This document shows, in pieces, positions 29,519 through 64,000 of a stretch of 64,000 nucleotides of DNA. The notes under the pieces are model-generated. The model saw only the letters and a list, made by a program, of their open reading frames with translations. It was not told the DNA's origin and made no database searches. Made by a program: the position numbers and the translations under genes. This DNA comes from Trypanosoma brucei (taxonomy: Eukaryota), in the NCBI GenBank assembly GCA_000002445.1, contig CP000071.1, positions 800,001 through 864,000 of the forward strand. The letters run 5' to 3'. Every line of letters starts with the position of its first letter. Position 1 is the first letter of the stretch.

Positions 29519-30970
29519 TGGCACAGAGGGTAACGAAGTAGGAATTTTTGCCGCCAGCTGAGGTCGTTTACCTTGGGTTGGCTGTCATGGAGATAGGGAA
29601 GAGAGAAGCAACATCGCGTGCAAGGAAAAACGAACAGAAGAATCGATCCCTCCCCCCTCCATGAGTCCTTCTTCGTTTATAATTTCGGCTGTTGTTTTTG
29701 CTGTCACCTTTTTTTTTCTTCCTTCTCGTTCGCCACACCCTCTCCTCAACCTCCTTTACCTCCATGGATCTCTCGGCAGCAGTCCCCCTCCCCTCATTCC
29801 CCTCATGTTTTGGTGGTCGCCTTATTGGCACCTCTTTTCGTCATTTTTTCCCCCCACTTGCTGCAGTTCAAGGCGTATTTGTGGGGAGAGTAAAGAACAT
29901 AAGTGAAATCTGAAAACAATAGAAAAGAGAGATGAATTAATTAATGAATGAATGGGAGAAATAAGGAGGAGAGGTGGTGGAGAGCTGGGGAACTGTAATG
30001 AAGAAGAAAAAAAAGAAGAACGAGGGAAAGGTAGATTCAGTGGGGGAGACAAAACAGTGAAGAAGAATCTGGCGGAAAGCAACAATAAGTGTGAAAATGA
30101 GAACGAAGGTGTGAATGATTCTTCAGTTTAAGAAACCACACGTGAAGAAGGACAGAATATATAAATAAATATATCTATTTATATGTTGATGTCTCAGAAG
30201 AAAAAAAGCAAAGGAGGGGAGATAGAAGAGGTTTAAAGGGAGGAAGGAAGACAGGCCCTGAAACCAATAAAACAAAATAAATAAATAAAGAAACGCGAAA
30301 TCAAAACTGAAAATGCGAAAAAAAAAACGAAGAACAAGAAGGGTGCAATGAAGGAATGAACTCCACAGAGAGAATACCCGTTCAAACATTCTTTTCTTCG
30401 TTTTTCCCCTCCTCCTCTCCCCGACGCAACCGCCCCCCTTTTTTTTCTATAATTGGCTCTTCTGACCCACACCCCCTCACTTTCCTTCTCAAAGAACGGC
30501 ATCTTGTTTTCCCACCCTTTATTATTGTTAATTTCTTTTTTCGCTTTACTATTATTATTATTATTTACCACCCCATCACCGTTACTTTTAGTTGTTTTTT
30601 TTTTTTTTATGCCTCTCTCCTTTCATTTTTTTGCGCTTTTGCTCCTCCTTATTGGTTATGTAGAGCGATTTATATAAATCTAATATATATATATATATAT
30701 ATATTTGTATTCATATATTTTATGTCTTATATACATAACTACTTTCGCGCAGAAAAGGGAAAGAGGAAAGGAGAAGAAGGGGGAAAATAGAAAGCCCATG
30801 CACATATATATATATATATATTTATTTATTTGTTTATTTATTTATATATATATATATATGTATTCTTTGTACCTCCCTTTCGTTTTTACTTTGTTTTTTG
30901 TTTTACCTTTTTTTTGTTTCTACTTTGTTTCTTGTTTTGTTTACTGTTAGTCACTCCTTACTATTTTTAC

Positions 30971-31110
30971 CGCCTCTATTATTATCACTATTATTATTAT
31001 TATTATTACTATTATTATTCCTATTATTATTATTATTATTCCTATTATTATTATTATTATTATTCCTATTATTATTATTATTCCTATTACTACTGCTATT
31101 ATTATTGTTA
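30971..31110. repeat. Imperfect (TTA)n/(TAT)n microsatellite punctuated by CC (cctattattattatt... x4-5)
   Basis: Direct reading of the sequence. Confidence 0.9.
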
Positions 31111-33336: not shown

Positions 33337-33371
33337 GTTTTGTTTTGTTTTGTTTTGTTTTGTTTTGTTTG
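33337..33371. repeat. (GTTTT)7 pentanucleotide microsatellite. A related (CTGTTTT)3 lies at ~33478-33512.
   Basis: Direct reading of the sequence. Confidence 0.9.
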
Positions 33372-42912: not shown

Positions 42913-45900
42913 ATGCCGCTATACAATATCACTATTCATCCGCTGAAGCTTGCTGCGCACTTCTGCAAACAGGGTTGTTCATACGTTGTCGTTGTTAACC
43001 GTAAGGGGGTGGAGCTGGCGACAAAACCCGCCATGTGTACCGTTGCCGATGAGGTGGCCTTCAGCACACCGGCGGAACTGAACCAGACCCGGACATTTCA
43101 ACTTGCCTTCGACTCACCCAAGGACCGACGTATGATCCAGTTTGCTATGTACGACGTTACCAATCCGAAGCATAGCATAAGGATCACAGGATTTGAAATC
43201 CCACTTGCGGGGATGTGCAGTGTGCTTGCCGGTGAGTCCATATGCGAAAGGAAGGCTGTCTCCTTCCGCATTTCTGGAAGGCCGGGGCGGTTGGACGTCA
43301 TTTTCCGCATGCACCCCACTACGAGCCCCGTACCCCCTCTGACGTTGTATGCGGGGCCGGCAACAGGTTCTGGAGGAAGCAGCTCACCAGTGGAAACAGT
43401 TCGCCTCCCCGCGCGCACCGTGGAGGTGCTTAAGAAGGTTGGTGTACTACCAAAAGATGTGGAAGAAGTTGAGGTGGACGCTGTCATCGCCCAGGAGGTT
43501 GTTGTGCGCACTTCCATGTTGTTTCCCAGTGAGGCCGAACTGCGTGAACGTGTGATGACGCTCGAACGTGAGGTAGCCCAACAGGAGTATAGCGTGCGGT
43601 ATGCTTCAAAGGACAGTGTGTCTTCAGGTTCGGCCGCTTGTGTTGCGCTGCGTAGCGAGCTTCAATACTGGAAGGACACTGTAGAAAGAGTGAATCTACA
43701 GTCAGCGCAAGAAACAGGGATTGCGTTGTTGCTTAAAGCTGGTGAAGAGGGTGAACACGACGACGGCAGTCGCGCCCTCATAGCCGATGTTGAAGGGCAA
43801 CTGGAGGAGGCGAGGAGAGAGCTAAAGACCATAGAAAGATCCCAGAATGATGAAGAGTTGAACACGAAATTAATTCCACTTCTCGGGCAGGTGGAGCAGT
43901 TGGAGGAGCTACTGGAACACCTCCGGAAGGAAGTACATGTACCACCCAAGACTGCGGGATCTAGTGAGAAAGCTGACGTCGTAGATCAGTGGGAACAACT
44001 TGCGCGCGAATTATTCGACAAGGAGCTGATGGTTGAACAACTTATGCACACAGTTCTTACACTCAACCAACTTCAGTTTGAACCATATCCTGCCGCAATT
44101 GAGATGGGCGCTGTTGGGGATACGCCATGTGAACTACAGTTCGTGCGTGACAACAAGAGACAGTTGAAGAACCTTCCTCAGGTCCCCACTCCTAAGCAAG
44201 CCACCGATCTCGCAGCAGCCTCCGGCGGTCCCACCAGTGACAACCTGCTGAACGATCTCTTCGGTTGTCCATCTCCCCCAAAACCAGTTCCACAACCGAC
44301 GGTACAGGCCGACGAGGTGACATCACAACCGCACTTCGAAAGAGAAAACGGGGGGCTTCCAGGCGCACCATCTGTTTTTTCTAGCGGTGTGGCCCCAATT
44401 TGGGGGCAAAAGCCAGTGGGGGCACCCCCCCAAGATGACGCTATGCAACCAGCGGCCACGGCAAACACTCTAGACACCACCGATGGCAAGGTCGGCGACA
44501 GCATGGCGTTCGAAAAGAAAACAACTGAACCGCAAATTATGGTCTCCGCCGGTCTTGCTGCAGCCGCCGCATCACCACCTGACACCCAAAACGGACAGCA
44601 GCTATCATTCCCATTTGACTCGAAGCAGCAGGGTCCAACACAGGGACAGCAGCAACCATTCCCATTTGACTCGAAGCAGCAGGGTCCAACACAGGGACAG
44701 CAGCAACCATTCCCATTTGACTCGAAGCAGCAGGGTCCAACACAGGGACAGCAGCAACCATTCCCACTGGGTTCGCAACAGCAGGGTCCAACACAGGGAC
44801 AGCAGCAACCATTCCCATTCGACTCGAAGCAGCAAGGTCCAACACAGGGACAGCAGCAACCATTCCCACTGGGTTCGCAACAGCAAGGTCCAACACAGGG
44901 ACAGCAGCAACCATTCCCATTTGACTCGAAGCAGCAGGGTCCAACACAGGGACAGCAGCAACCATTCCCATTTGACTCGAAGCAGCAGGGTCCAACACAG
45001 GGACAGCAGCAACCATTCCCATTTGACTCGAAGCAGCAGGGTCCAACACAGGGACAGCAGCAACCATTCCCACTGGGTTCGCAACAGCAAGGTCCAACAC
45101 AGGGACAGCAGCAACCATTCCCACTGGGTTCGCAACAGCAAGGTCCAACACAGGGGCAGCAGCAACCATTCCCATTTGACTCGAAGCAGCAGGGTCCAAC
45201 ACAGGGACAGCAGCAACCATTCCCATTTGACTCGAAGCAGCAGGGTCCAACACAGGGACAGCAGCAACCATTCCCATTCGACTCGAAGCAGCAAGGTCCA
45301 ACACAGGGACAGCAGCAACCATTCCCACTGGGTTCGCAACAGCAAGGTCCAACACAGGGACAGCAGCAACCATTCCCATTTGACTCGAAGCAGCAGGGTC
45401 CAACACAGGGACAGCAGCAACCATTCCCATTTGACTCGAAGCAGCAGGGTCCAACACAGGGACAGCAGCAACCATTCCCATTTGACTCGAAGCAGCAAGG
45501 TCCAACACAGGGACAGCAGCAACCATTCCCACTGGGTTCGCAACAGCAAGGTCCAACACAGGGACAGCAGCAACCATTCCCATTTGACTCGAAGCAGCAG
45601 GGTCCAACACAGGGACAGCAGCAACCATTCCCATTTGACTCGAAGCAGCAGGGTCCAACACAGGGACAGCAGCAACCATTCCCACTGGGTTCGCAACAGC
45701 AGGGTCCAACACAGGGACAGCAGCAACCATTCCCATTTGACTCGAAGCAGCAAGGTCCAACACAGGGACAGCAGCAACCATTCCCATTTGACTCGAAGCA
45801 GCAAGGTCCAACACAGGGACAGCAGCAACCATTCCCACTGGGTTCGCAACAGCAAGGTCCAACACAGGGACAGCAGCAACCATTCCCATTTGACTCGAAG

Positions 45901-46791
45901 CAGCAGGGTCCAACACAGGGACAGCAGCAACCATTCCCACTGGGTTCGCAACAGCAAGGTCCAACACAGGGACAGCAGCAACCATTCCCACTGGGTTCGC
46001 AACAGCAAGGTCCAACACAGGGACAGCAGCAATCATTCCCATTTGACTCGAAGCAGCAAGGTCCAACACAGGGACAGCAGCAACCATTCCCATTTGACTC
46101 GAAGCAGCAAGGTCCAACACAGGGACAGCAGCAACCATTCCCATTTGACTCGAAGCAGCAAGGTCCAACACAGGGACAGCAGCAACCATTCCCACTGGGT
46201 TCGCAACAGCAGGGTCCAACACAGGGACAGCAGCAACCATTCCCACTGGGTTCGCAACAGCAGGGTCCAACACAGGGACAGCAGCAACCATTCCCATTTG
46301 ACTCGAAGCAGCAGGGTGTACCGCAGACCCCGTCAGTGCCAGGACAACAGCAGCAATATATGGCCCCTCCAGAGACACCTGTTCCTCGGTATGTGCGACG
46401 TCCACTAGCGTCGGGAGTGTCTCCCTTTGCTCCTTTTATTAACATTCCCCTCGTAGCACGTGCTTGTCCCCTGGATATTTACCTTGATGGGCAGACCCCT
46501 ACACGCGGCACAGAGATTACCATTCAGAACAATGGTGGTTTTGACATTACTATTGGTGGGGTGGAGCTGCGGCAGGAAGACATGACATCAACTTCGCCGC
46601 ACGCAGGTCAAACTGTTCCCATACGTCGCTGGCCACAACAAATGCACGTACCGCGCGGCGGCGGTCGCGCTACATGCATTATTGCGCTGCACCCAAGTTA
46701 TGCTCGGGGGAGTTCGCTCATCCTCCTGGTCGTGGTGTATGTGCTGAATGAGGGTCGTTATACACCTTTTGCCGCCCGTTTTCCAGTATAG
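42913..46791 (+). CDS. Large repeat-containing protein. It has an N-terminal globular region, a coiled-coil segment, ~34 tandem 17-aa Q/P-rich repeats, then a C-terminal region.
   Basis: 1292-aa ORF. A heptad-like charged region (residues ~200-330) comes before the repeat array. The repeat unit is [17 protein letters not shown] with the variant [17 protein letters not shown]. Confidence 0.8.
44590..46316 (+). repeat. 51-bp tandem repeat array, ~34 copies, in frame inside the CDS
   Basis: Unit ccattcccatttgactcgaagcagcagggtccaacacagggacagcagcaa. Two unit variants alternate irregularly: gactcgaag (FDSK) and ctgggttcgcaa (LGSQ). There are synonymous cagcaa/cagcag differences. All six frames are open across the array because the unit has no stop codon. 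Confidence 0.95.
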
Positions 46792-51801: not shown

Positions 51802-52052
51802 ATTTGCGTTTGATGGAAGCAAAGGTGCAGGGCAATTTTACCGTGTTATTGGCTCCCTTTTTTTTTTCCGTTCTTTCTCCTTATTTTTGTGCCCCCTCCT
51901 TACCGTTTGTTTGCTTCGTGCCAAGATATTCAATATTTGACCCCATCCACCAGTTGGGTCGACGGAAAGGGAGAGAAACGTACCTGCAAAGTTGAGAAGT
52001 AGAGGGAAGGAGTATCCAGTCGTTTTCTGACCGCATTAGCCCAAGTGTAACT

Positions 52053-53813
52053 ATGCAGGTGACACGGGACAATTTACCGACCGTGCTTCCCAAATTTGTA
52101 CAGCTTCTGAAAACCTGCGACTTCTATGCATTCGACGAGGAAATGACAGGAATCAATGTGCCTGAGCTCCCAGAGTCTGTCACCGATACGCCCCAGGAAA
52201 CCTACAACGCAAAGCGAGCAGCGGCAAGCCGCTACAATATAATTCAAGTCGGGATATGCCTCTTTCACAAAAATAGCGAAAACGGGCCTTCTACACCAGC
52301 GTCGTATGTTGCCCGCCCCTTCAACTTTGTTATTTTCCCCAATCATGAAGACGACTCGCCAAGCTTGGGGAGGGGAGACGACGTGGTGCTAAATCCTTCG
52401 TCCCTTGCATTCCTTCGGCGGCACGACATGAATTTTCAGTCGTGGGTGTACCGTGGCATGGGTTATTGCGATGCCGCCCGTGAGGTGGTATTGCGCCAAA
52501 ATCATGAAGAAAAGTACCACCCTAACCTAAATGACTCTACAGAGCAACGACGGCGCCACGCGCAGTCTATGGAACTCCTAACCCAGGAAGAGAGAAGTTG
52601 GTTTGATGGGGCCGTTGCCGCAGCGCAGAGCCTCTGTGAGCGTGCCCGGGCCGCAGTGGAGCGCGCACAGGCGCAATGTGCTGAAAAGGGAAGTCCTGGT
52701 GCAATTGAGCTGGATGCCGCGATGGATCTCCAGCGATCCGGCGGACGCGAAGTCGTCATCCAGCCGCAGAGAAACAAAAATGCCCGAGAATGTCTGCAGC
52801 GGCACATCGCGCAACACTTCCAAGATATTTCTCTCACGTTCCGACGGAGCGGTTCGACTTATCATGGCACCTTTAAGGTCCTCTTTCCCGGCGAGCAGGC
52901 TCGTATTCTCGAGAAGGAATGCGCGCTGAGAGAACGCGAATTGGTGGATATGCTAGGTTTCCGCCTCGTTTTTAAGGCACTTGTCGAAAGTTCGAAGCCT
53001 TGTGTTGGGCACAACTGCCTAGCGGACGTTCTCTTTCTACTAGCTTCTCTCGATGGAGAACTTCCCGCCGCATTGCCCGAGTTCAAGCATCGCGTCGTCC
53101 AGCTGTTCCCGAAAGTGTTCGACACCAAGTATATTGCCAGCCGCCAAGATCTCTTTCCGGCAGGCAGATTTGGGTCTCGCTACTTGGCGGGGTATTTTGA
53201 CGAATGTGGATTTTGCTCGGCAAACGTTCGAGTATCACTTCCGTTGGGCTTCGAGGAATATGACCCGCTGAAACTTTCTTCAGTGGGGAGAAGCGCAGGT
53301 GGCAATGGCGCACCGGTTCACGAAGCCGGATACGACGCCTTGTTGACTGGGACGCTGTTGCTTAATCTACTCGCGGAAATTGGAGGAGGTGACGTGACGA
53401 CGGCCCCAGCAGGGTTGACGAATAGGTTGGCCCTCTTTCGTTCCCTATTCGCCATTAACCTAAATCCCGACGGTGAAGATGAATACCTTCCTCAAAGCGG
53501 TGCGTTAACGCTACAACACGAAAAACACATCAAGTCTCATCATATCGACAGCTGCTTTTCAGCCTTCTCCTTGCAACATGTAGCCCTGTACCCGATCGAC
53601 GACATGCGCACCCTTGCTGTGCTCCCCTTGTCGTGGACAAAAGCGTGCAACCTCGACGTTGAGGATGTGAGTGGGCTTTCTGTGCAAATGACCTCGCGCT
53701 TCCCTCAGTACTTCCAGGCGTCTCCGTTCACATTCCCTGCAGGTACTAAAGGCGCCTTCCGCGCAACGCCCGTCTCTCTAGCAAGAACGGTTTGCAAAGC
53801 ACTAAGAAGGTGA
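52053..53813 (+). CDS. PARN: Poly(A)-specific ribonuclease (PARN, CAF1/DEDD family deadenylase)
   Basis: The N-terminal block DFYAFDEEMTGI corresponds to PARN DFFAIDGEFSGI and carries the catalytic D and E. The C-terminal catalytic block HEAGYDALLTG corresponds to PARN HEAGYDAYMTG. 586 aa. This may correspond to T. brucei PARN-1 (from memory, unverified). Confidence 0.85.
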   Translation: MQVTRDNLPTVLPKFVQLLKTCDFYAFDEEMTGINVPELPESVTDTPQETYNAKRAAASRYNIIQVGICLFHKNSENGPSTPASYVARPFNFVIFPNHEDDSPSLGRGDDVVLNPSSLAFLRRHDMNFQSWVYRGMGYCDAAREVVLRQNHEEKYHPNLNDSTEQRRRHAQSMELLTQEERSWFDGAVAAAQSLCERARAAVERAQAQCAEKGSPGAIELDAAMDLQRSGGREVVIQPQRNKNARECLQRHIAQHFQDISLTFRRSGSTYHGTFKVLFPGEQARILEKECALRERELVDMLGFRLVFKALVESSKPCVGHNCLADVLFLLASLDGELPAALPEFKHRVVQLFPKVFDTKYIASRQDLFPAGRFGSRYLAGYFDECGFCSANVRVSLPLGFEEYDPLKLSSVGRSAGGNGAPVHEAGYDALLTGTLLLNLLAEIGGGDVTTAPAGLTNRLALFRSLFAINLNPDGEDEYLPQSGALTLQHEKHIKSHHIDSCFSAFSLQHVALYPIDDMRTLAVLPLSWTKACNLDVEDVSGLSVQMTSRFPQYFQASPFTFPAGTKGAFRATPVSLARTVCKALRR

Positions 53814-54288
53814 AGAAGGGTGTTTAAAAAAAAAAAAATTCGCGTTACTCTACTGCAAAAAAAAAAAAAGACATTCGGCAACGAACAATTCAATCCACTG
53901 GGGGATGCGTGCCCTTCGTCGCACCACAACCACAATCCTCTTCAATTTTCCCTCTTTCCTATTTTCGACCCCTAACCCGCCTGCCGGCACGCCCCAAATG
54001 GCGCGGCCCACATTTGACGTAGAAACCATTTGCATATATGACTCTCCCGAGGACCCGCGCCCCGGGCAGACTCGAAGGGGGGACGTTCTGCGCATAACGC
54101 TAAGTGGCGGCGAACAGCAAGCCTCCCGTAACGTCCCTGTAAACGCGGCCGACCCGATCCAATAGTAAAACACAAGGGCCACGTCCTCTTCCCGCCCCCG
54201 CCGCAGCAGTAAGGTTATGCGTGAGAGGTTTTGACTGCCACTTGGAACGCTGAACCGTGGCGTAAGAGTCTCCGCAAAGGAAAACGAA

Positions 54289-54362
54289 TGCTCCCGGCGG
54301 GGTTCGAACCCGCGATATTCGGTTCATAAGACCAACGTCCTAACCAACTAGACCACGGGAGC
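54289..54362 (-). tRNA. tRNA-Ile (anticodon UAU)
   Basis: Minus-strand cloverleaf: acceptor gctcccg/cgggagc, anticodon arm ttggt-cttatga-accga, T arm gcggg-ttcgaac-cccgc, T-run after the 3' end. G at position 37 is unusual. Confidence 0.75.
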
Positions 54363-54456
54363 ATTGGCGCCGGCCACTTCGACAGATACAGAGGAAAGGA
54401 CCGCCGAGTAAACTTCTTCGTTTGTATTAGAAAAAAACAGCCTAACGGCAGTGGCC

Positions 54457-54528
54457 GGTCCTATAGTGTAGTGGTTATCACTTCGGACTTTGAATCCGAA
54501 AACCCAGGTTCGAATCCTGGTAGGACCA
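54457..54528 (+). tRNA. tRNA-Gln (anticodon UUG)
   Basis: ggtcctatagtgtagtggttatcac...ttcgg-actttgaat-ccgaa... The T arm ggttcgaatcc is followed by aattttcgttttttt. It closely resembles eukaryotic Gln-TTG. Confidence 0.85.
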
Positions 54529-54584
54529 AATTTTCGTTTTTTTCAATTCACTAACTATGGTGTCTTTTCACCATCTGCGGCAGT

Positions 54585-54657
54585 GCGTGGGTGATCTAGT
54601 GGTTATGATGTCTGCTTTACACGCAGAACGTCGCGGGTTCGAACCCCGCCCCGCGTA
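54585..54657 (+). tRNA. tRNA-Val (anticodon UAC)
   Basis: Anticodon arm tctgc-tttacac-gcaga. T arm gcgggttcgaaccccgc. Acceptor gcgtggg/cccgcgt with two G-U pairs. Confidence 0.75.
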
Positions 54658-54727
54658 GCGTTTTCCAGTTTGCGGCTGCGTCTCTTCATGTATGGTTCCG
54701 ATTAATGAAATTGTTGAGGAACACGTA

Positions 54728-54800
54728 GCCCTTCTAGCTCAGTCGGTAGAGCGCACGGCTCTTAACCGTGTGGTCGTGGGTTCGAGCCCCACGGGGGGTG
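54728..54800 (+). tRNA. tRNA-Lys (anticodon CUU)
   Basis: gcccttctagctcagtcggtagagc... Anticodon arm cacgg-ctcttaa-ccgtg. T arm gtgggttcgagccccac. Identical in sequence to the copy at 61366. Confidence 0.85.
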
Positions 54801-57767
54801 CTTTTCTCCGATTTCCCTGATTTAACTTCCACAATGGGGTGCCTCGAGTGCTGTCCCGTAAGGCGGTGTGATGTGTCAACAGGCCTTCCTTCAGCAGCGT
54901 CACAGTGATATCGTCGTCACTAAAGGGGAAGTGCCTTCTTCAGGTTGTTGATCTAACATGTTATTGGCCGAAGGCTCCTGCGGTGGACGGCGCATCCCAC
55001 CACCACCTCCCCCCCCCCCCCCGAGAGATCGGGCCTGTGAACTTTTCGGTTATACCCCACACACCCTTTTTCCGGTGGTCTGTCACGGTTTAATTTACGC
55101 GACACGAAAGAGAGCAAACAGACCCCTCACATGAAGCGATGTGTGGGACCGTGTTTTCGGGGGGGCCGAGTCATTAGAACACTTGGAGTTCCTTCTTTTT
55201 TGCTTGTGTCAGACGTCACTGTGCAGCTTTCCTTTCCTAAGGACTAGCCCTTAGCTCGGTGGGGCCATTCAGTAAAGAAGTTCCACCTCCTCACAGTGGT
55301 TGCACAGGAAAATAGCTGCACCCAGGGGCTGGGCACAGGCGCCACAACAAACCACGGCTATTGTCCTAACCCTTGAAAACCAATAAACTTGTATGTACAT
55401 AATGGGTGTCACCTCTAATTGATTCGGAAGTGGACACGAGTATCTTGACGTCAAAAAAAAAAAAGAAAAAATAGCGACTAGCGAACTCCCATATGCTGGG
55501 ACCGTTGAGGTCTTCAGAGGGGACGCTGTACGGAACAAAGATACTGTTAAACATCACCCTGAAGTTGTGGAAAGGATAAAGGCGAAGTGGGGGGCTGAGA
55601 AAAATGGAACCTGAAGGAACAAAATGAAAAACTCGGGGACCTATTACGAAGGCTCGCTCCGAAATTTGATAGAAACTAAGGTTCGATAGAACCAAATTGT
55701 TTATTGTACGCCCTTTCTCTTTAATCTATTTTGTCAGGTGCCGACTAGGATGATGACCCCTAGTAGGGAACAAAAAAAGACACTCGAAACAAAATGCAAG
55801 TAGTCTTTTCATAAAAATAAAAGAGATCAGGCCCTCATCACATCACACAACGTTCTTAAACATGCAGAAACACGACATATACCAGTGTTCGCGCCTGTGC
55901 GAAGCTCCAGCATCCACCTACTTCCTACTCCCACAGACACACACCCTTCACCCCAGCCCCTGTGGTGAGACTATGTTTTTCCCTGCACATGATGGGAGCC
56001 GTGTCATCAACTGTTCGTGGGCTGAAAGCATGTACCCGGGGCCCCTCTGATGGGAGTGCCTGTGTGGTAAAGAGTCCGCCCCAAACACGGCAGTGGGTTG
56101 GTGTTGTTCGCCTTTACGCTCCAATCATACCCCATTGGAGCACACCACAGGCACCTGATCTTCCCACCCTGACTGATGTGCATGAACAGAGAAACACTCT
56201 GGGGTTTCCGGCTGCCCCGGGGCACCGATTCTTTTCGCAGAGATAAATTCCCTTTAGCTTGTCATAGAAGTGGTTTTACGTTCTGCGGATCAAGGCTTCA
56301 AACAAATAGGCACCCGATATTTCTTTTCCCAACTTTTTTTTTTCACCGCTGCCTATTCAATCATCCTCGAAGCGTGCAAAAGCGGCTAGTAAAAAAAGAA
56401 AACCTTATACCAACTCGAGATTAACATAATATATGTACACATAACTCGTGATCGAGCCCCTAGTTTTGAGCGCTAGCCACACATAGGTCCAATTTTTTTT
56501 TCTTTTCACCGTTGAAAAGTAACTTGCCCGAACCACTCAAATAAGTGCCCAAGGTGTGTGGGAAGGAAAGACACAAGACTCTTCTAAGTAATTTCAAAAC
56601 TGTGACATCACTGGAAGGCCAAATAACCAATGTCCATGGGATGGTCAGAGCTCAGTAAAGTGACAGCAGCGTCGGTGAAGACTGCGCCGGGTCTGCCGAA
56701 CGAGAATGGCAAACTCCAGGTGCAGAAACACCAGCACACGCTCACACACATTCGCATATAAACAGCCTCCGCCTTCCCAATGCCGAGCGAAAGAGAACAC
56801 GCTGTAACCTATGGAAGCGGCGAAACACAGCTATCGCTAACCTTGCTTTGCGGTCATTGCTAACGCTGATGGGACGAAAAATAAGGGCTGACAGCTGGAA
56901 GAATAACACCAACAGAAAAGGAAAAGAATGGTGGCTAAGAGGCTCATATGTTCGAGCTTTTAAACTGGTATTAAGCGCAATTTCATGGGGTAATATTGCG
57001 CTGGTCTTGGTACCTTTATCTGGGGCAACGGCTATTACACTAGAGGGCAGGATGTGTAAAGCCACGTATCTCCACAGTTTATTGAAAGGAGGAAGAAGTT
57101 CTTGAATTAAATAACTTTTTTGATAAAGATTTTAACAACAAGCTAAACAGAATGCTCTAAATTTGGAGGAGGTGACAAGTAAGGAGAGGGTGGGGAAGAA
57201 ATCCTGGGAAAACAGATGCGGTTAGAGGGAGTTTGTATTGGGCAACTTTTTTTTTTTTGCACGCAGGCACGATTTAAAAATATATACATTTGCTTCCAGT
57301 GTTGGCTCCTTGTTCTCTCTCAGTGTCTGAAGGCAAAGTAGGGCCTGGATTATCACTAGAAGTAAGTCAATGGAGGTAATATCCTGGAATGGGTGCGATA
57401 CCCGAGAGTTCCCCCCATTGGGGTCGAGGCGATATGCTTTTCGCATAAAACACCGGAAGCAGGTACGTGCAAAAGAGGAAAGGAGGAGCATCATCTACGA
57501 GAGTGCACCCTCACCTCATTAACGTGAATGCGCTCAGTTAGGAAACTTGGACTTACCCCCTTTTATCCTTCCCTTTTGGAAGCCGTATTCGGCCCAAACA
57601 CGAACCAGTACGTGGGGATTCGGCGTAGCAACGCCGCCGGTATTCAATACGAGGATGGACCAACCAACGTATACAAATAAAGAAAACGACGAGGAGACAA
57701 GACAACGCCAAGCTGTTAAAAGTTTACCCACAGAACGGCCCATACAAAACGATGCACGGAAGGACGA

Positions 57768-57845
57768 AAAGGAGGGACGCTTCCGTTCCCACTCAAAGTT
57801 TACTGCAAGCACGGCGCTTTCGTGATGACGCACTGCAGGTGAGTT
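57768..57845 (-). ncRNA. U1: Candidate U1 snRNA (~75-78 nt)
   Basis: The minus-strand transcript AACUCACCUGCAGUGCGUCAUCACGAAAGCGCCGUGCUUGCAGUAAACUUUGAGUGGGAACGGAAGCGUCCCUCCUUUU has a 5' end ACUCACCUG complementary to a GU 5' splice site (canonical U1 is ACUUACCUG). It carries an Sm-like AAACUUUGAG site, a terminal hairpin GGGAACGGAAGCGUCCC and a U4 terminator. The size fits the unusually short (~75 nt) trypanosomatid U1. Confidence 0.65.
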
Positions 57846-58105
57846 GCCCCCACCCCGGAAAAACAGCCGTACAACCCAACATACCACAAAGAACAATATA
57901 AAAGGATCGTATACTAATAAATACTGCGTGGCCGCACCCCTTTTCATCTTGTCTGAATGCCGAGGATGATGGGTTGCAGACGCCGCACTCATCGCCTTGG
58001 GATCGGTGCCCGGTTCATGCGTACTTTGTCTTGACATCTCGATCGGGGCGGCATACTCCATAATATGCTATAGCGTACATAAAAAAACAGTGCTGGGCTG
58101 TAGCG

Positions 58106-58177
58106 GCAATCGTGGTCCAACGGTTAAGATTTCCGCCTTCCAAGCGGGAGACCCGGGTTCGACTCCCGGCGATTGCA
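58106..58177 (+). tRNA. tRNA-Gly (anticodon UCC)
   Basis: gcaatcgtggtccaacggttaagat-ttccgccttccaagcggga...cccgggttcgactcccgg-cgattgc-a. The anticodon loop ccttccaag and T arm match eukaryotic Gly-TCC. Followed by ttttttcgttttt. Confidence 0.8.
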
Positions 58178-58264
58178 CATTTTTTCGTTTTTATCATTCG
58201 GCATATTGTTATGCTCTCGAAAAGCTTTGACACAACATTGCTACGTTAACTCAGGCGGCGGTGT

Positions 58265-58346
58265 GGCAAGATGGTCGAGTGGTCTAAGACGTGACGTTCA
58301 GGTCGTCATCTCTCCGGAGGCGTGGGTTCAAACCCCACTCTTGTCA
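58265..58346 (+). tRNA. tRNA-Leu (anticodon CAG), class II with a long variable arm
   Basis: Acceptor ggcaaga/tcttgtc. Anticodon arm tgacg-ttcaggt-cgtca. Variable arm tctctccggaggc. T arm gtgggttcaaaccccac. Confidence 0.8.
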
Positions 58347-58429
58347 ATATTTTCGTCCGATCATATCGGACTCAGCGGTTTCAAGTGTGGTCTCAACCGC
58401 CGCCGAAGTGTCAATAGGCGCGAAAACAA

Positions 58430-58501
58430 AGGCCCCGCCGAGAATTGAACTCGGGACCCCTGGTTTACAAGACCAGTGCACTGCCACTGTGCTACGAGGC
58501 C
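58430..58501 (-). tRNA. tRNA-Thr (anticodon UGU)
   Basis: Reverse complement ggcctcgtagcacagtggcagtgc-actggtcttgtaaaccagg-ggtcccgagttcaattctcggcggggcc-t. Nearly identical in its arms to eukaryotic Thr-TGT. Confidence 0.85.
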
Positions 58502-58598
58502 AGCGGAAAGGGCTAATAGATATTTCTTGCAGAAACTTTTTTAGAGGAAAAAGGTTATTTCATATACGTTGGCATTTTCAGTATTGCGCCTCGCTGAC

Positions 58599-58670
58599 GG
58601 TCTCGTGGCGCAATGGAAGCGCATCAGACTTCGGATCTGAGGGTTGCAGGTTCGAGTCCTGCCGGGATCG
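58599..58670 (+). tRNA. tRNA-Arg (anticodon UCG)
   Basis: Acceptor ggtctcg/cgggatc. D arm gcgcaatggaagcgc. Anticodon arm tcaga-cttcgga-tctga. T arm gcaggttcgagtcctgc. Confidence 0.8.
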
Positions 58671-60986
58671 CACTTTTCCTCAGTCACATTGGTTCGATAG
58701 CGCCGCGGCTTGTGTGTTAACGGCGCCGCCGGCTGAAAATAGCGGAAGTGGCTGCTAAAGGAGGGGGAGGAGGAGGGGACTAACGACACGGGCTAGCCTG
58801 GCTGGTAGCGGCGAATGTGCTTTCGCCCGACATGATGGTGACCTCTATTTTCTGCTTTATAAGGTTTCGCCTTGACGTTGGAAGAACCGCTTCTTGCACA
58901 TTTGCTCAATGTTGATCATTTCATAGTTTAAGTCAGCAACAGGTCGACCGCCTGTAAGGGTCATCTTTTCCTTACCCACTTATCCCTTTTGCCAATATAT
59001 GCTCATACACAGAAATTGACGGTCAGAGATTTTTCACATGGAACAGTTGAAGCTCGTTTTGCCAACATCCCGAGGAGCGGAGACGAAAATCGCAACCGCC
59101 TCTTTATTGGGCCCCGCATGGCTTAATACCAACCGTTTCTCCCTTCTTGTAGAGAAAAAAAGGTTCTGTTTAGTTGGTTGACTTTCTTGTGAAGATGCCA
59201 TGCATAGAGGGACGTTGTCAATTCGAAAATGATGCGTATGCTTGGAAGGGTCTCTCTTTTCACACGTTGGAATGAATTAAGGAAGCCTTTCTGCCAACGC
59301 CGCGGGACCGCATCAACCGTCATTGCAGGCGTCATTGTAAGGTGGAGTGGGGCTAGTGGATAAACGGAAACGTTTGTATGATGCCGAAATGAATCGAAGC
59401 AAGGCTCATAACACACATACGAGTCGCTCTCCGCTGAATCAACCGGCCTCCAGTCCAACGGGACGAGATGAGAAGTCGGGAATGCACCATAGCACTGAAG
59501 AAGTAGGGGTCGTCGGGATGTCGATGGAGGAACCCCGCCAACCTGGAAATTGACACCTTCTTCCACCTTTCTTTGGCATTTTAATAAGCGATATGTACGA
59601 ATGAAGCTCCCTAATCTTCTCGAAACGTCGGATTGCGGTTACGGCCACCGGAATGACCTTAGGATGCATCTTGGAAGGGGGTTTTTGTCTACTAGCCTGG
59701 TTTGCTTCTCCGAGGATTGGACACCGGTCCCCCTGACGTTGTGTTGACGGGGGTTGGGCAGGCCGCTGCAATGCAGGCTGTGAAAAACTCATTTTGTCCG
59801 CGCCACCGAAGCGCGGGAGACACGGTTGCTTTATTACTTGTTCCATAAGTTAGAAAGAGTCGCATTATCCAACATGTGTTGAGGAAGGGTTTCGACGCAT
59901 CTGCTGACGTTGCTACCCTCACGCTGACAGTTTAAGGGGGGCACTATAGCGAAGAAATCTTCCGCGAAGCGTTTGGAAGGTAACGAGCGGATTTTCGAGA
60001 ATTAGGGTCACGTAGCAATAACTGAAGAATCAGTGGGAAAGTAGAGAAGGAATATGCCAAAATTGAGAGTGGGTGTTGAAAAACTATCACGAATCCTGTT
60101 TGCCAGCTCAGGTTTCTCGCCTTGTTTCGCGGTGAGCGCGCTCAAATACATGTTGTCGACTCACACCCAGATTTCGGTGAGGGGGGGGGGCCGCCCGCCG
60201 ACACGGCAGAGTGTCACACTATTTCCGACTTTTCGTTCGCAGATAGCGGGGTGGGGCGATAGAAAGCGTGTCACATGATAGAACTTTGTGTTCGCTATTG
60301 TGTAGGTCTTAGGCTGTGGGACCCTAGAGGATAACAGAGAGTCAATCCCCTAAATAGCATTTCACACTATGAGCCCTGACTGCGGTTCCTTGTGGTAGAA
60401 TCGCTCCCCTTTTCATTTGGAAATTTGTTGTGGGGAAATGGATCACTCGATATTTAATGGGCATTGCTTGCTTTGGTATTGCCGCAAGTTGCACTCGTGA
60501 AATTGATGCCTGCGTGTGAGAGAGTCGACAAACATATGAATATATATATATTTTTGACTTTCACCTGGAGCTATTGTAGGGGGCCGCCCGAACGCACTTG
60601 GCTTCAGACCGTCATTGCGTGAGGGAGGGGGTAAGACAAAGATGGAAGAAATACATAATAGCGCCAACCAGACACAGTGTTTCGGACTGGCGAGCCAAAT
60701 AAAGTTAGCACCTCCTACCGCAGCTTATGAAGATGCCGGGGAATACTTTCTTGCGCATCTACTTTTATTCTGGTGGAGCGTTGAAATTTCCCCTCACCCC
60801 ACCGGAGAGTGCGTGATGTAACTCTGCGAATGTCATTGGGGCAAGGGGGGTGCAGCAAAATGGGCGGAGGCGGATGTTGTAAGGCATTTTTTCCCCCACA
60901 GTTCCTCCCATGAGGTGCTTGAATCGTGATCCTGTGACGAAAAGCCATAATCGGCAAAAGAAACCCACTTTGATCCGTTTTCAGCG

Positions 60987-61270
60987 GAAAACAAACCGCC
61001 TCGCGACGACACTTGGGGCGCAAAATCCTGAGATGCTCCTCGGTGTGCTTCTGCAACGGGAACGTGCGCAAGGTGGGCTGCTCCGTCACCGGCCTGACCC
61101 GTTCCCCCCACTTTAACGGCGCGAGAACGCCTCTCTACAGTGGCGACCTCAACACCGACACGCAACCAAGCAGAACACCAAGTCAACGCAACAGAACCCC
61201 CGCTTGTCCAAGACGTCCCCGCTAAGCGGGATCAGCCCCCGAAGGTTACAGAGCAATATGCTCCGGCTAC
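60987..61270 (-). ncRNA. 7SL: 7SL (signal recognition particle) RNA gene. The 3' end is approximate: oligo-T runs in the transcript correspond to + coordinates 61021-61024 and 60987-60994.
   Basis: The minus-strand transcript begins GUAGCCGGAGCAUAUUGCUCUGUAACC..GGGGGCUGA (Alu-domain-like UGUAAC and GGCUGA motifs). It contains GGGUCAGGCCGGUGACGGAGCAGCCCACCUUG, which closely matches the universally conserved SRP RNA domain IV / helix 8 motif (E. coli 4.5S GGUCAGGUCCGGAAGGAAGCAGCCAAGG). Its +1 lies ~96 bp from the divergent tRNA-Lys, the arrangement described for trypanosome 7SL genes. Confidence 0.8.
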
Positions 61271-61365
61271 ATCAATCGTTTGACAAAGCCAAGTGATATT
61301 CTTATTCGACATAAACTAAGAAAAAATAAATAAATGTATGTTACAATACGCTTACGGAAGCGGCT

Positions 61366-61438
61366 GCCCTTCTAGCTCAGTCGGTAGAGCGCACGGCTCT
61401 TAACCGTGTGGTCGTGGGTTCGAGCCCCACGGGGGGTG
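61366..61438 (+). tRNA. tRNA-Lys (anticodon CUU), divergent companion of the 7SL gene
   Basis: Same sequence as 54728..54800. Followed by a T10 run. Confidence 0.85.
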
Positions 61439-61527
61439 CTCTTTTTTTTTTGACTTCCCTTTCAGCCGTCCTCATACCGAAAAACGGTGTCAAAACCGTC
61501 TGCCCCGTCCTTCTCTTAGGTGAAAAA

Positions 61528-61599
61528 CATCCGTGACAGGATTCGAACCTGCAACCCTCTGATCCGTAGTCAGATGCTCTTCCATTGAGCCACACGGAC
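61528..61599 (-). tRNA. tRNA-Arg (anticodon ACG), divergent companion of the U3 gene
   Basis: Reverse complement gtccgtgtggctcaatggaagagc-a-tctga-ctacgga-tcaga...gcaggttcgaatcctgt-cacggat. A T5 run follows on the minus strand. Confidence 0.8.
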
Positions 61600-61695
61600 G
61601 TGATCGCTACTCGGGTTGACGAGTGAGGTTGAATACATAAGAAACTGTTTATTACCGATATTAGACTATCGCGATAACTCTGGACGCCGGATGTT

Positions 61696-61840
61696 AAGAC
61701 CGTACTCTGAACAGAATCGTTTTATGAGTACAACCTCTTAAATGAGAAATAACCAACAACCAAATCCTGATGATGAAGGTTGCTGGCTCCGCCCGGAGAG
61801 CTGTTCGATGAACGGCAGGAGCCGGTTCCAGAAGGATCCT
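61696..61840 (+). ncRNA. U3: U3 snoRNA (trypanosome snRNA B), ~144 nt, Pol III-type with a T7 terminator
   Basis: The 5' end AAGACCGUACUCUGAACAGAAUCGUUUUAUGAGU parallels vertebrate U3 AAGACUAUACUUUCAGGGAUCAUUUCUAUAGU (GAC, box A'/A). There is a UGAUGA box (cctgatgatgaagg) at 61766-61776 and a T7 run at 61840-61846. The +1 is 97 bp from position 1 of the divergent tRNA-Arg. The length fits the reported ~143-nt T. brucei U3. Confidence 0.8.
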
Positions 61841-64000
61841 TTTTTTGTTCCACCTTGGCTCGCTGCAACGGGAACTGCCTGGCTCGCTTCTTTTGAGGCC
61901 CTGTGCCTCACGGGTCTCAACGACGTAAAATAAGCCTCCCGGATGCGGCATTCACACCTCCTGCGTATGGAGAGATTGCGTTTGGGTGTGAGACTGGGTG
62001 GGAAACCAACGGCCAACATCCTTTTCGGGGCAGTGTGAGGGCGATCTCTATGCGCCTAGGGTGGCAGTGTTCAGACCACGCTCTTTGATGAGACCCAGTA
62101 GACGACGATCACCTTATCCGGGCTGTCGAATCCTTTCCGCCGACCCTTCAACCGTGGGATGGATAGGAAACTTTCCGGCCAGCGGGGTGGCAGTGCTTAA
62201 GATGGATGGTGCCGTGTTGGAGAGCGTCGCGCTCAGACGGTAGGCCCCACAAGGATTTCTGTTAGGTCTTACTTTGTTCACCAAAATGATGGAACGGTTC
62301 GGCCGACCAACGCACGGAAGACTGGGGTGCCCAGCATTGTTCCTTCGTGGTGGCAAACATGGCAGTAATGTGATCGAATATCAATCGCCGACAACCGGGG
62401 TGTCATATTCGGGAAGAATTTGTCGGCTTCGTCCAGTGTTCAATAAATTGTTCCATGGGAGTGTCTGCTGAGATTGCGAGGTCCACACTGTTTGGGTCAG
62501 CGACAAAAACGGCTGGCCACCGCGGGCCCGCCGAAGCTAATAGAAAAATGAAGATACCGACACAACCAGGCCCCACCCTGCAATATATCAAGGGCGCCAC
62601 CAAGCATCTCCAAGGGGAATTCGAAATGGCTTAAACGAAATTTTTTTTTTTTGGAATTTTCTTCGTGCCTTCGTGGGAGTTTCCCCCCACTGGCGCGGCC
62701 ATCAGCCATCACCGTAGAGCCCTGAGATGCTATCGGTCTGGCGACTGTGGCAGAGTCTCCCTTTTTCATTCATCCTAACACACCCTCTATAATTTTTGTT
62801 GTATTTCCGCATATGAACGGAATACAGCAGATGGGGCGAGAAGCCCCCCACCCCAGACTCTCCAAAAGTTGTCAATTAGCAATCCTTTTTTTGAGGTCCA
62901 CATCACCAGACAGCAGCATCTTAGTGCGGATGATAGTGCCGATGGCACGCTTGCCACGTGCCCAGGGACCGACAAATGAAGAACGGTGTCCCAGCAAGAC
63001 GCTGCTGATCCCTGTGCTGTATGATGCCGTATCCGGAGCACAGCAGTGTTCCCCATGAAAGGAACGCTGTTGGCTCTTGGCTTCCCCCGATGATACGGGG
63101 TACTGGACCCTGGCACCACGTTGAGGTGGCCGGCATCGCCAGGGACTTAAACGAAAATCGCCCGGTTGCATGCGGTTTCCCCGTTGTAACATTTGCGGGA
63201 GAAACGCTGGGGCCGTTGCGTCACACCGTCGCGGGAAACAGTGCGCTTCCGGGTAGTGGCCATGTTGTTCTTCACCTCCCACCTGACGAAAAAAAATCTG
63301 CAGGGGCCCAAAGGTCAAGCGGCCAGCATCATAGCAAGCATTCCGTGTGGTTTAAACGGGAGCGGCGTGCTGAAAGAGGCAGGATCACCCGTTGTTGAAG
63401 GAGGTTTGCGAGAGCGTAATGGAATGCTAAATTATATTGGCTGCCGGAACCACAGAACGCAGCAGGACCACCGGAAAACTTTACCACGTGGTCAATCTGC
63501 TCATATGGAGTTGGGCGCTGCAGAGGGTTGGTAAAGCAGCTTCTAGGGGTCAAATTTTCTCCGTTGGGGCAAAAGCATCGCTACTAGTTGAAAGATTGCG
63601 AAAGCAGGCTGCCCCCGGGTAAAATAAAGGAGGACGTGCCGGAAGGAGAAAATGAGGTTTAAACGATAATGAGGGTTAGAAGGCGTCCCACAGCGCGCCA
63701 TCAGATCCACGCCGTTGACTCAACCACGTTGGTCATGACTATTTGGGCTGGGGCCATCATATTTGACGAGGATGAGGAACGGACCTGGTCATTTAAAGGG
63801 GCTCGCAGGCTAGGGTGCGGTTAACAAGGAGAGAACGTTGCGACGGAAGTGACGTTCGGAGAACCTCCGAAAAAAAAAGGTGGGGAGCAAGAGAGGAAGT
63901 TGGGTTTATGACGTTCGTTGACTCCGTGTCCCTCATTCCAAGCCTCTGGTGCAGCGCCGGTGTCCGCAGAATTTGCCACGTACACCGCACAAGTTGCCAG

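What the first reader, a model, noticed from the sequence alone, without database searches (positions are those of the whole stretch)
60987..61846. Compact Pol III island: 7SL RNA <- tRNA-Lys -> ... <- tRNA-Arg / U3 snoRNA ->, with ~96-bp divergent spacing
Within 860 bp there are two divergent tRNA/small-RNA pairs. The 7SL-like gene on the minus strand has its +1 at ~61269/61270, and tRNA-Lys position 1 is at 61366. tRNA-Arg(ACG) on the minus strand has position 1 at 61599, and U3 starts on the + strand at 61696. The gaps are 96 nt in both cases. This is exactly the architecture in which the A and B boxes of an upstream divergent tRNA act as the extragenic promoter of trypanosome Pol III small-RNA genes (Nakaar, Tschudi and Ullu). 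The 7SL call rests on a near-universal SRP RNA helix-8 motif (GGUCAGGCCGGUGACGGAGCAGCC) that I could read directly. The U3 call rests on the GAC/box A-like 5' end, a UGAUGA box and a T7 terminator.
Basis: partly seen in the sequence, partly recalled or inferred. Interest (0 to 1): 0.6.

Follow-up and report, generated by a model that had tools for sequence, protein, structure and literature searches.

The report
Trypanosome 7SL/U3 genes with companion tRNAs

Summary
They are 7SL/SRP RNA (minus strand, Rfam 113.8 bits), tRNA-Lys(CTT) (+), tRNA-Arg(ACG) (-) and U3 snoRNA (+, Rfam 76.9 bits).

The tRNA-Arg to U3 spacer is exactly 96 nt. The 7SL to tRNA-Lys spacer is 95-96 nt if 7SL starts at 61270/61269. 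The sequence alone cannot fix that start, and one published numbering begins 13-14 nt further in, at 61256. With these starts, box A lies at -103/-104 and box B at -147/-148 from each small-RNA start. That matches the published trypanosomatid rule of box A about 104-106 bp upstream.

The window is T. brucei-group chromosome 8. The neighbouring PARN-1 protein is 100% identical to the T. equiperdum protein, the DNA is 99.7% identical to a T. equiperdum contig, and published Tb927.8.2859 primers match exactly. According to papers that cite that work, this is the T. brucei locus for which tRNA A/B-box dependence was reported (Nakaar et al. 1994).

Related species keep the 96-99 nt small-RNA/tRNA spacing even where the partner tRNA differs. 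Divergent tRNA-tRNA spacers range from 73 to 120 nt.

A third case in the window, a U1 snRNA that Rfam misses, completes the published 13-gene Pol III cluster.

Verdict: correct, and already known.

The parts
60996..61270 (-). 7SL (SRP) RNA gene body, about 275 nt. The 5' end is inferred and could lie anywhere in 61267-61270. An alternative published numbering starts at 61256.
   Evidence: Rfam RF01856 at 61255..61030, 113.8 bits. Rod-like fold with a small Alu-like 5' domain. 275-bp annotation of Tb927.8.2861. Published probe primers match at 61256-61237 and 60996-61015. Pseudouridine numbering.
60988..60995 (-). Pol III terminator of 7SL (TTTGTTTT on the minus strand)
   Evidence: Read directly from the sequence. 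Terminator-like site reported.
61271..61365 (.). Divergent spacer between 7SL and tRNA-Lys, 95 nt (96 nt if 7SL starts at 61269), with an AT-rich centre
61366..61438 (+). tRNA-Lys(CTT), the companion tRNA of 7SL. Box A TAGCTCAGTCGG at 61373-61384, box B GGTTCGAGCCC at 61417-61427, T10 terminator at 61442-61451. Identical to the second copy at 54728-54800.
   Evidence: ARAGORN. Rfam tRNA 63.4 bits. Box B pattern scan. Coordinates and copy identity.
61528..61599 (-). tRNA-Arg(ACG), the companion tRNA of U3. Box A TGGCTCAATGG at 61592..61582, box B GGTTCGAATCC at 61549..61539, T5 terminator at 61527..61523.
   Evidence: ARAGORN. Rfam tRNA 66.3 bits.. 100% identical to the L. pyrrhocoris tRNA-Arg(ACG).
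61600..61695 (.). Divergent spacer between tRNA-Arg and U3, exactly 96 nt
61696..61839 (+). U3 snoRNA gene, about 143-144 nt. It has the AAGACCGUACUC 5' end and UGAUGAUGA box C/C'-like motif, and is followed by a T7 terminator at 61840-61846.
   Evidence: Rfam RF01848, 76.9 bits, full-length model match. 88% identical over 150 nt to L. pyrrhocoris U3. Published length 143 nt.
57769..57845 (-). Upstream lie a box-A-like TGTCTGAATGCC at 57950 (-105) and a box-B-like GGTTCATGCGT at 58012 (-167), in a degenerate tRNA-like stretch.
   Evidence: Exact ACTCACCTG match. Fold and motifs. Orthologues in three species and a conserved stem-loop I with one compensatory pair. Not detected by Rfam.

Best explanation
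The 860-bp interval is the right-hand end of the conserved 13-gene RNA polymerase III cluster on chromosome 8 of a Trypanosoma brucei-group genome. That cluster holds 10 tRNAs plus U1, 7SL and U3.

Two small-RNA genes, 7SL/SRP RNA (Tb927.8.2861) and U3 snoRNA, each lie head-to-head with a functional tRNA gene: tRNA-Lys(CTT) for 7SL and tRNA-Arg(ACG) for U3. The tRNA's internal box A (about -104) and box B (about -147) are the only recognisable Pol III promoter elements upstream of each small-RNA gene.

The inferred mechanism has three steps. TFIIIC binds these boxes. TFIIIB and Pol III are then positioned on both sides of the ~96-bp spacer. As a result the tRNA is transcribed one way and the small RNA the other, each stopping at its own T-run.

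Shown here: gene identities, orientation, spacing, consensus boxes, terminators, organism and locus identity, and conservation of the spacing across species despite partner swaps.

Taken from the literature, not tested here: that expression of the small RNA depends on the A/B boxes, and that TFIIIC/TFIIIB occupy such promoters.
For: -
- Box A lies at -104 (U3) and -103/-104 (7SL). Box B lies at -147 and -147/-148. This matches 'box A consistently 104-106 bp upstream' and boxes at 105 and 150 bp for L. major U2.
- Organism and locus: the PARN-1 ORF is 100% identical to the T. equiperdum protein. The DNA is 99.7% identical to a T. equiperdum contig, and primers published for Tb927.8.2859 match exactly at 58599-58670. 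7SL is Tb927.8.2861.
- The 13-gene syntenic cluster is described in PMC2695483. All 13 genes are found in the window.
- Published statements for T. brucei say that U3 has a divergent upstream tRNA-Arg(ACG) and depends on its A/B boxes, and that A/B boxes of tRNAs promote U3, U6 and 7SL in the opposite direction.
- The TFIIIC subunit Tau95 occupies tRNA genes and the U2 gene and its tRNA-like promoter in T. brucei.
- Comparative control: small-RNA/tRNA spacers are 95-96, 96, 97, 97 and 99 nt. These are T. brucei 7SL and U3, L. pyrrhocoris U3/tRNA-Trp and U1/tRNA-Arg(ACG), and T. melophagium U1/tRNA-Gly. Divergent tRNA-tRNA spacers are 73, 81, 83, 94, 97 and 120 nt.
Against: - The 7SL transcription start is not fixed by the sequence. 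One numbering used in the literature puts nucleotide 1 at 61256, which would make the spacer 109 nt.
- Inside this window the tRNA-tRNA divergent junctions also measure 94 and 97 nt, so the spacing is not distinctive locally.
- No expression or mutational data can be produced with these tools.
- The primary paper (Nakaar et al. 1994) is not held in the library, so it is cited only through papers that describe it.
- The literature itself leaves open whether the tRNA boxes act directly or through chromatin.
Confidence: 0.95

Rival explanations
1. The linkage works indirectly. TFIIIC and Pol III activity at the tRNA gene only keeps the spacer free of nucleosomes, and the small-RNA genes use their own proximal or intragenic elements for start-site selection. 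On this view the tRNA is a chromatin opener rather than a shared promoter.
For: This is proposed explicitly in the literature as an alternative. An intragenic element in the first ~21 nt of snRNA genes is also required. T. theileri U1 lies 245 nt from its tRNA-Gly across an AT-rich stretch with no clear box A at -104.
Against: The spacing stays within 95-99 nt across Trypanosoma and Leptomonas while the partner tRNA changes identity. Neighbouring tRNA-tRNA spacers drift from 73 to 120 nt. A pure chromatin effect should tolerate variable distance. The literature reports that the spacing of the boxes relative to the gene is critical.
Confidence: 0.2
2. The adjacency is just clustering of Pol III genes. 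tRNA genes and small-RNA genes gather at boundaries of polycistronic units, and the ~96-bp gaps are coincidental.
For: All intergenic gaps inside the three sub-clusters are short (56-97 nt), and the two tRNA-tRNA divergent gaps are 94 and 97 nt.
Against: The spacing is conserved across species and specific to small-RNA/tRNA pairs. No other promoter-like element lies upstream. Papers describing the work report mutational dependence on the A/B boxes for U3, U6 and 7SL in T. brucei.
Confidence: 0.03
3. The 7SL-like and U3-like sequences are pseudogenes or retroposed SINE-like copies rather than the functional genes.
For: None specific. 7SL-derived SINEs exist in other eukaryotes (general knowledge).
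Against: Both give full-length matches well above the Rfam cut-offs. Both have intact terminators. They sit in the conserved syntenic cluster. Published T. brucei 7SL probe primers match exactly. The 7SL body is identical, apart from one base, to the T. equiperdum copy. [quoted passage not shown]
Confidence: 0.01

Closest known systems
T. brucei 7SL/tRNA-Lys and U3 (U-snRNA B)/tRNA-Arg(ACG) locus (GenBank X57047 for the U3 side; Tb927.8.2861; Nakaar et al. 1994, Mol Cell Biol 14:6736, as cited)
   Same: The same genes, the same partner tRNA for U3 (tRNA-Arg ACG), the same orientation, and spacing within the published 93-105 bp range. The organism is T. brucei-group. For practical purposes it is the same locus.
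   Different: Nothing of substance. The window carries GCCGGAGCAUAUUGC at the 7SL 5' end, where a published Tb927.8.2861-based primer reads GCGGAGCGCATTGC. It also has one base different from T. equiperdum inside 7SL.
Syntenic 13-gene Pol III cluster: T. brucei chr08-II, T. cruzi Tc6288 (Sc016/160), L. major chr23 (PMC2695483, PMC12204681)
   Same: 10 tRNAs plus U1, 7SL and U3, lying downstream of the same protein-coding unit.
   Different: In Leishmania a 5S rRNA gene replaces 7SL and a tRNA-Trp replaces one tRNA-Lys. In L. pyrrhocoris, U3 pairs with tRNA-Trp and U1 pairs with tRNA-Arg(ACG).
L. major U2 snRNA promoter (tRNA-like boxes A/B at -105/-150, plus box B of tRNA-Ala; PMC4950102)
   Same: Divergent A and B boxes at the same distances from the start. 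It is transcribed by Pol III and has an intragenic 5' element.
   Different: U2 uses a degenerate tRNA-like element plus a second, more distant tRNA. 7SL and U3 here use intact, functional tRNA genes directly.
Vertebrate type-3 Pol III promoters (U6, 7SK) and the human 7SL hybrid promoter
   Same: Small-RNA genes transcribed by Pol III from elements that lie wholly or partly upstream.
   Different: Those use TATA/PSE/DSE elements and SNAPc (introduction). They do not use a neighbouring tRNA's A/B boxes, and in vertebrates U3 and U1 are Pol II genes.

Membership tests
Protozoan SRP (7SL) RNA, Rfam RF01856 | Covariance-model score at or above the curated gathering threshold over the full model | tested here: met
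   113.8 bits against 65, model positions 1-228 of 228, E = 1.9e-23.
Protozoan SRP (7SL) RNA, Rfam RF01856 | Conserved helix-8 (SRP54-binding) motif and a long rod-like helix 5 closed by the 3' end | tested here: met
   GGGUCAGGCCGGUGACGGAGCAGCCCA at 61100..61074. The minimum-energy fold is a single long rod with the 3' end paired to nt ~42-65. The fold's z-score of -1.77 is unremarkable on its own.
U3 snoRNA, Rfam RF01848 (clan CL00100) | Covariance-model score at or above the gathering threshold, the 5' GAC/box A region, and the box C'/C UGAUGA motif | tested here: met
   76.9 bits against 55, model positions 1-209. AAGACCGUACUC at the 5' end and CCUGAUGAUGAAGG. 88% identity to L. pyrrhocoris U3. 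The box D position aligns to CAGA rather than CUGA.
Trypanosomatid tRNA-dependent (companion-tRNA) Pol III small-RNA promoter | A tRNA or tRNA-like element immediately upstream in divergent orientation | tested here: met
   tRNA-Lys (+) against 7SL (-), and tRNA-Arg (-) against U3 (+).
Trypanosomatid tRNA-dependent (companion-tRNA) Pol III small-RNA promoter | Box A about 104-106 bp upstream of the small-RNA start, with an intergenic spacer of 93-105 bp | tested here: met
   U3: box A at -104, spacer 96 nt. 7SL: box A at -103/-104, spacer 95-96 nt with the inferred start. The caveat is the alternative 7SL numbering from 61256.
Trypanosomatid tRNA-dependent (companion-tRNA) Pol III small-RNA promoter | Consensus A and B boxes in the partner tRNA | tested here: met
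   TAGCTCAGTCGG and GGTTCGAGCCC for tRNA-Lys. TGGCTCAATGG and GGTTCGAATCC for tRNA-Arg.
Trypanosomatid tRNA-dependent (companion-tRNA) Pol III small-RNA promoter | Small-RNA expression is abolished when box A or box B of the tRNA is mutated | not testable with these tools
   Reported for T. brucei U3, U6 and 7SL (Nakaar et al. 1994) as described. The primary paper is not held.
Trypanosomatid tRNA-dependent (companion-tRNA) Pol III small-RNA promoter | Pol III termination at an oligo-T run immediately after the small-RNA body | tested here: met
   TTTGTTTT after 7SL at 60995..60988, and T7 after U3 at 61840-61846.

The most novel reading that the evidence does not exclude
The two 7SL 5' ends in use in the literature may both be real. 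One is about 61270, giving the 275-nt gene and the small Alu-like fold. The other is 61256, used for the pseudouridine numbering and a probe primer.

On this reading, a primary Pol III transcript starts 95-96 nt from the tRNA and is then trimmed by 13-14 nt. That would remove helix 2 and helix 3 of the Alu-like domain. It could explain why trypanosome SRP is described as lacking an Alu domain and as recruiting the tRNA-like sRNA-76.

The evidence here does not exclude this. A truncated reference sequence is the simpler explanation.
Probability: 0.08. Interest if true: 0.45.

Novelty: already known. Interest (0 to 1): 0.08.

Why it matters
As a finding it adds nothing new. The companion-tRNA promoter of trypanosome 7SL, U3, U6 and other snRNA genes has been known since 1994, and this window carries that T. 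brucei locus.

Its value is as a positive control. The first-stage reader identified four non-coding genes, their strands, their ends and the correct mechanism from raw sequence alone.

Two minor points may be useful:
- Rfam 15 does not detect the minimal trypanosomatid U1 snRNA, which had to be found by hand.
- The spacing rule holds across Trypanosoma and Leptomonas even though the partner tRNAs have been exchanged.

Tried and rejected
- **Permissive Rfam scans.** I scanned 52-64 kb and 57.6-58.1 kb for more small RNAs. Nothing turned up beyond tRNAs and chance hits, and U1 was not detected.
- **Extra tRNA-like elements.** A search with an exact box-B pattern returned only the known tRNAs plus one likely chance hit at 38051.
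- **The ~96-nt rule for tRNA-tRNA pairs.** T. brucei shows 94 and 97 nt, but other species show 73-120 nt, so I rejected the idea that the rule also governs these pairs.
- **Apparent loss of tRNA-Lys in T. equiperdum.** This is a 10-N scaffold gap, not biology.
- **Synteny walk from PARN-1.** T. cruzi, T. conorhini and T. rangeli have no tRNAs within 10 kb. T. theileri and T. melophagium carry only the left half of the cluster. T. congolense is not on record. No second 7SL locus could be obtained this way.
- **Metagenome scan with the helix-8 motif.** It gave more than 120 hits. The flanks of the motif are dominated by GGAA-loop forms that look like bacterial SRP RNA, and nhmmer found no match to the T. 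brucei 7SL in any hit.
- **Protein search with an ORF antisense to 7SL.** The aim was to find spurious gene calls over 7SL in other species. There were no hits.
- **Right flank of the window.** It holds no ORF usable as a synteny handle.
- **Primary papers.** Nakaar 1994, Tschudi and Ullu 2002, and Ben-Shlomo 1997 are not held.
- **Conserved islands in the two long gaps of the cluster.** I found none in 54.8-57.8 kb or 58.7-61.0 kb, and none downstream of U3.
Full report
**1. Observation.**
The interval 60987-61846 contains four non-coding RNA genes. ARAGORN reports tRNA-Lys(ctt) at 61366-61439 (+) and tRNA-Arg(acg) at 61527-61600 (-). Rfam at curated thresholds reports Protozoa_SRP (RF01856) at 61255..61030 on the minus strand, 113.8 bits against a cut-off of 65. 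It also reports U3 (RF01848) at 61696-61838 on the plus strand, 76.9 bits against a cut-off of 55, with a full-length model match.

- the helix-8 sequence GGGUCAGGCCGGUGACGGAGCAGCCCA;
- the AAGACCGUACUC 5' end of U3;
- CCUGAUGAUGAAGG;
- a T7 run at 61840-61846.

Each gene is followed by an oligo-T run: TTTGTTTT after 7SL, T10 after tRNA-Lys, T5 after tRNA-Arg and T7 after U3.

**2. Spacing.**
The tRNA-Arg/U3 spacer (61600-61695) is exactly 96 nt. This puts box A (TGGCTCAATGG) at -104 and box B (GGTTCGAATCC) at -147.

For 7SL the Rfam model omits the first ~14 nt, so the start must be inferred. Three lines place it at 61267-61270:
- The gene is described as 275 bp (PMC6413958). A published probe primer ends at 60996, just before the T-run (PMC9200285). 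Counting 275 bp back from 60996 gives a 5' end at 61270.
- A primer designed on Tb927.8.2861 for an RNA-detecting assay (RT-RPA on parasite RNA) reaches back to about 61267, with three differences from the window (PMC9626900).
- The predicted fold forms a miniature Alu-like 5' domain with helix 2, two small hairpins and the UGUAAC turn. That fold needs bases 61269-61266.

A start at 61270 or 61269 gives a spacer of 95 or 96 nt, box A at -103 or -104, and box B at -147 or -148.

One conflict remains. Nine published pseudouridine positions on T. brucei 7SL (PMC9283944) are all uridines only if nucleotide 1 is 61256. With a U fraction of 0.25, about 4e-6 would be expected by chance per offset. 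A published forward probe primer also begins at 61256. I read this as a 5'-truncated reference sequence, but only 5'-end mapping can settle it.

**3. Where the window comes from.**
The ORF at 52053-53813 is 100% identical to PARN-1 of Trypanosoma equiperdum and 65% identical to that of T. congolense. The region 52001-62672 is 99.5-99.7% identical to a T. equiperdum contig. Primers published for T. brucei tRNA-Arg Tb927.8.2859 (PMC11894013) match exactly at 58599-58670. 7SL is Tb927.8.2861. The window is therefore chromosome 8 of a T. brucei-group (Trypanozoon) genome.

**4. The wider cluster.**
The window holds ten tRNA genes in three groups: 54288-54801, 58106-58671 and 61366-61600. The literature describes a syntenic 13-gene Pol III cluster of 10 tRNAs plus U1, 7SL and U3. 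It corresponds to T. brucei chr08-II, T. cruzi Tc6288 and L. major chr23 (PMC2695483; PMC12204681).

Rfam did not report U1, even in permissive scans. I found it by hand at 57845..57769 on the minus strand. Its features are:
- the 5' end AACUCACCUG;
- stem-loop I with the U1-70K-type loop AUCACGAAAG;
- the Sm-like site AAACUUUGAG;
- a 3' hairpin followed by a T4 run.

Orthologues exist in T. melophagium, T. theileri and Leptomonas pyrrhocoris. Stem-loop I is conserved and shows one compensatory pair. In T. brucei, a box-A-like TGTCTGAATGCC lies at -105 and a box-B-like GGTTCATGCGT at -167. This fits the published report that T. brucei U1 depends on boxes in a tRNA-like or tRNA element.

**5. 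Comparative test of the spacing.**
Inside the window, the 95-96 and 96-nt spacers are not distinctive. The two divergent tRNA-tRNA junctions measure 94 nt (Ile/Gln) and 97 nt (Thr/Arg). Syntenic loci fetched through PARN-1 orthologues separate the two classes.

| Pair | Species | Spacer (nt) |
|---|---|---|
| 7SL / tRNA-Lys(CTT) | T. brucei group | 95-96 |
| U3 / tRNA-Arg(ACG) | T. brucei group | 96 |
| U3 / tRNA-Trp | L. pyrrhocoris | 97 |
| U1 / tRNA-Arg(ACG) | L. pyrrhocoris | 97 |
| U1 / tRNA-Gly | T. melophagium | 99 |
| Divergent tRNA-tRNA pairs (six) | T. brucei group, T. theileri, T. melophagium, L. pyrrhocoris | 73, 81, 83, 94, 97, 120 |

The partner tRNA is exchangeable. The same tRNA-Arg(ACG), 100% identical between the two genera, serves U3 in T. 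brucei and U1 in Leptomonas. The distance is nevertheless held. That argues for a stereospecific constraint rather than simple clustering.

**6. Mechanism.**
Published work states the following:
- U3 has an upstream divergent tRNA-Arg(ACG), needs the boxes, and is sensitive to their spacing (PMC2784804).
- Box A sits about 104-106 bp upstream, and an additional element lies in the first ~21 nt of the snRNA (PMC4950102).
- A four-subunit TFIIIC exists in trypanosomatids, and its Tau95 subunit occupies tRNA genes and the U2 gene with its tRNA-like promoter (PMC10781861).

My best explanation follows from this. TFIIIC bound to the tRNA's boxes nucleates Pol III initiation complexes on both sides of the ~96-bp spacer.

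The geometry, the consensus boxes and the terminators are shown here. The dependence on the boxes and the factor occupancy are taken from the literature. Whether the effect is direct or works through chromatin remains open in the literature. The tight conservation of distance favours a direct, phased mechanism.

**7. Comparison with what is known, and novelty.**
This is not merely a member of the known class. It is the T. brucei locus that the cited papers describe for the original 1994 work. Every feature of the companion-tRNA promoter class that can be tested in sequence is met. The only feature that cannot be tested is the functional dependence. Novelty: already known. Interest: low, apart from its value as a positive control for the first-stage reader.

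**8. Residual oddities.**
- The 7SL 5'-end numbering conflict (section 2).
- The window carries an internal T4 in 7SL (61025..61022, minus strand) where T. equiperdum has CTTT. U3 also carries an internal T4, so T4 alone is evidently not an efficient terminator in these contexts.
- T. brucei and T. theileri have 260 and 245 nt between U1 and tRNA-Gly, where T. melophagium has 99 nt. This hints that an insertion separated U1 from a genuine tRNA partner. In T. brucei a degenerate tRNA-like element lies in the inserted stretch.

**9. Dead ends.**
- The metagenome scan with the helix-8 motif gave more than 120 hits. The flanks of the motif were dominated by GGAA-loop forms that look like bacterial SRP RNA, and nhmmer found no match to the T. 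brucei 7SL in any hit.
- A protein search with an ORF antisense to 7SL found nothing.
- No second 7SL locus could be reached by synteny.
- The primary 1990s papers are not in the library.

Noticed in passing
window 57769-57845 (-), with upstream elements at 57950-58022 (+): A U1 snRNA gene that Rfam 15 fails to detect even at E<=10. It has the AACUCACCUG 5' end, an AUCACGAAAG loop, an Sm-like site, a 3' hairpin and a T4 run. A box-A-like element lies at -105 inside a degenerate tRNA-like stretch. It completes the published 13-gene cluster.
   Followed up: yes
L004 13152/13252; L002 13971/14217; L007 12598/12696 and 18073/18171: Partner tRNAs are swapped between lineages while the spacing is kept. 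U1 pairs with tRNA-Gly at 99 nt in T. melophagium. U1 pairs with tRNA-Arg(ACG) at 97 nt and U3 with tRNA-Trp at 97 nt in L. pyrrhocoris. T. theileri has a 245-nt AT-rich stretch between U1 and tRNA-Gly.
   Followed up: partly
window 61256 versus 61267-61270 (-): Two different 5' ends for T. brucei 7SL are in use in the literature. Pseudouridine numbering and one probe primer start at 61256. The 275-bp annotation and a primer designed for an RNA-detecting assay imply about 61267-61270. That primer reads GCGGAGCGCATTGC where the window and T. equiperdum read GCCGGAGCATATTGC.
   Followed up: partly
window 61022-61025 (7SL, minus strand) and 61719-61722 (U3): Both small-RNA genes contain an internal T4 run. 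The one in 7SL is CTTT in the T. equiperdum contig, and this is the only difference between the two 7SL copies.
   Followed up: partly
window 54363-54456 and 58502-58598: The two divergent tRNA-tRNA junctions (Ile/Gln at 94 nt, Thr/Arg-TCG at 97 nt) have nearly the same spacing as the small-RNA/tRNA pairs. In other species the corresponding junctions measure 73-120 nt, so this looks coincidental.
   Followed up: yes
window 54802-57768 and 58671-60987: Two long gaps of about 3.0 and 2.3 kb split the Pol III cluster into three groups. They hold no long ORFs, no Rfam hits, no repeats within the window, and no conservation with T. theileri, T. melophagium or Leptomonas. In T. melophagium the first gap is only about 300 bp.
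   Followed up: partly
window 44593-46317: A 51-bp (17-codon) tandem repeat of about 34 copies at 92% match lies inside the long ORF at 42913-46791. This indicates a repeat-containing protein.
   Followed up: no
window 28000-36000, especially 30800-34640: An AT-rich stretch (GC 0.33-0.43 against 0.50 overall) full of simple repeats such as (TAT)n, (ATAT)n and poly-T, with no long ORFs between 29518 and 38281.
   Followed up: no
L006 15157-15166: The T. equiperdum contig has a 10-N scaffold gap that removes the 5' part of the companion tRNA-Lys. ARAGORN therefore finds only 9 tRNAs there. This is an assembly artefact, not a gene loss.
   Followed up: yes
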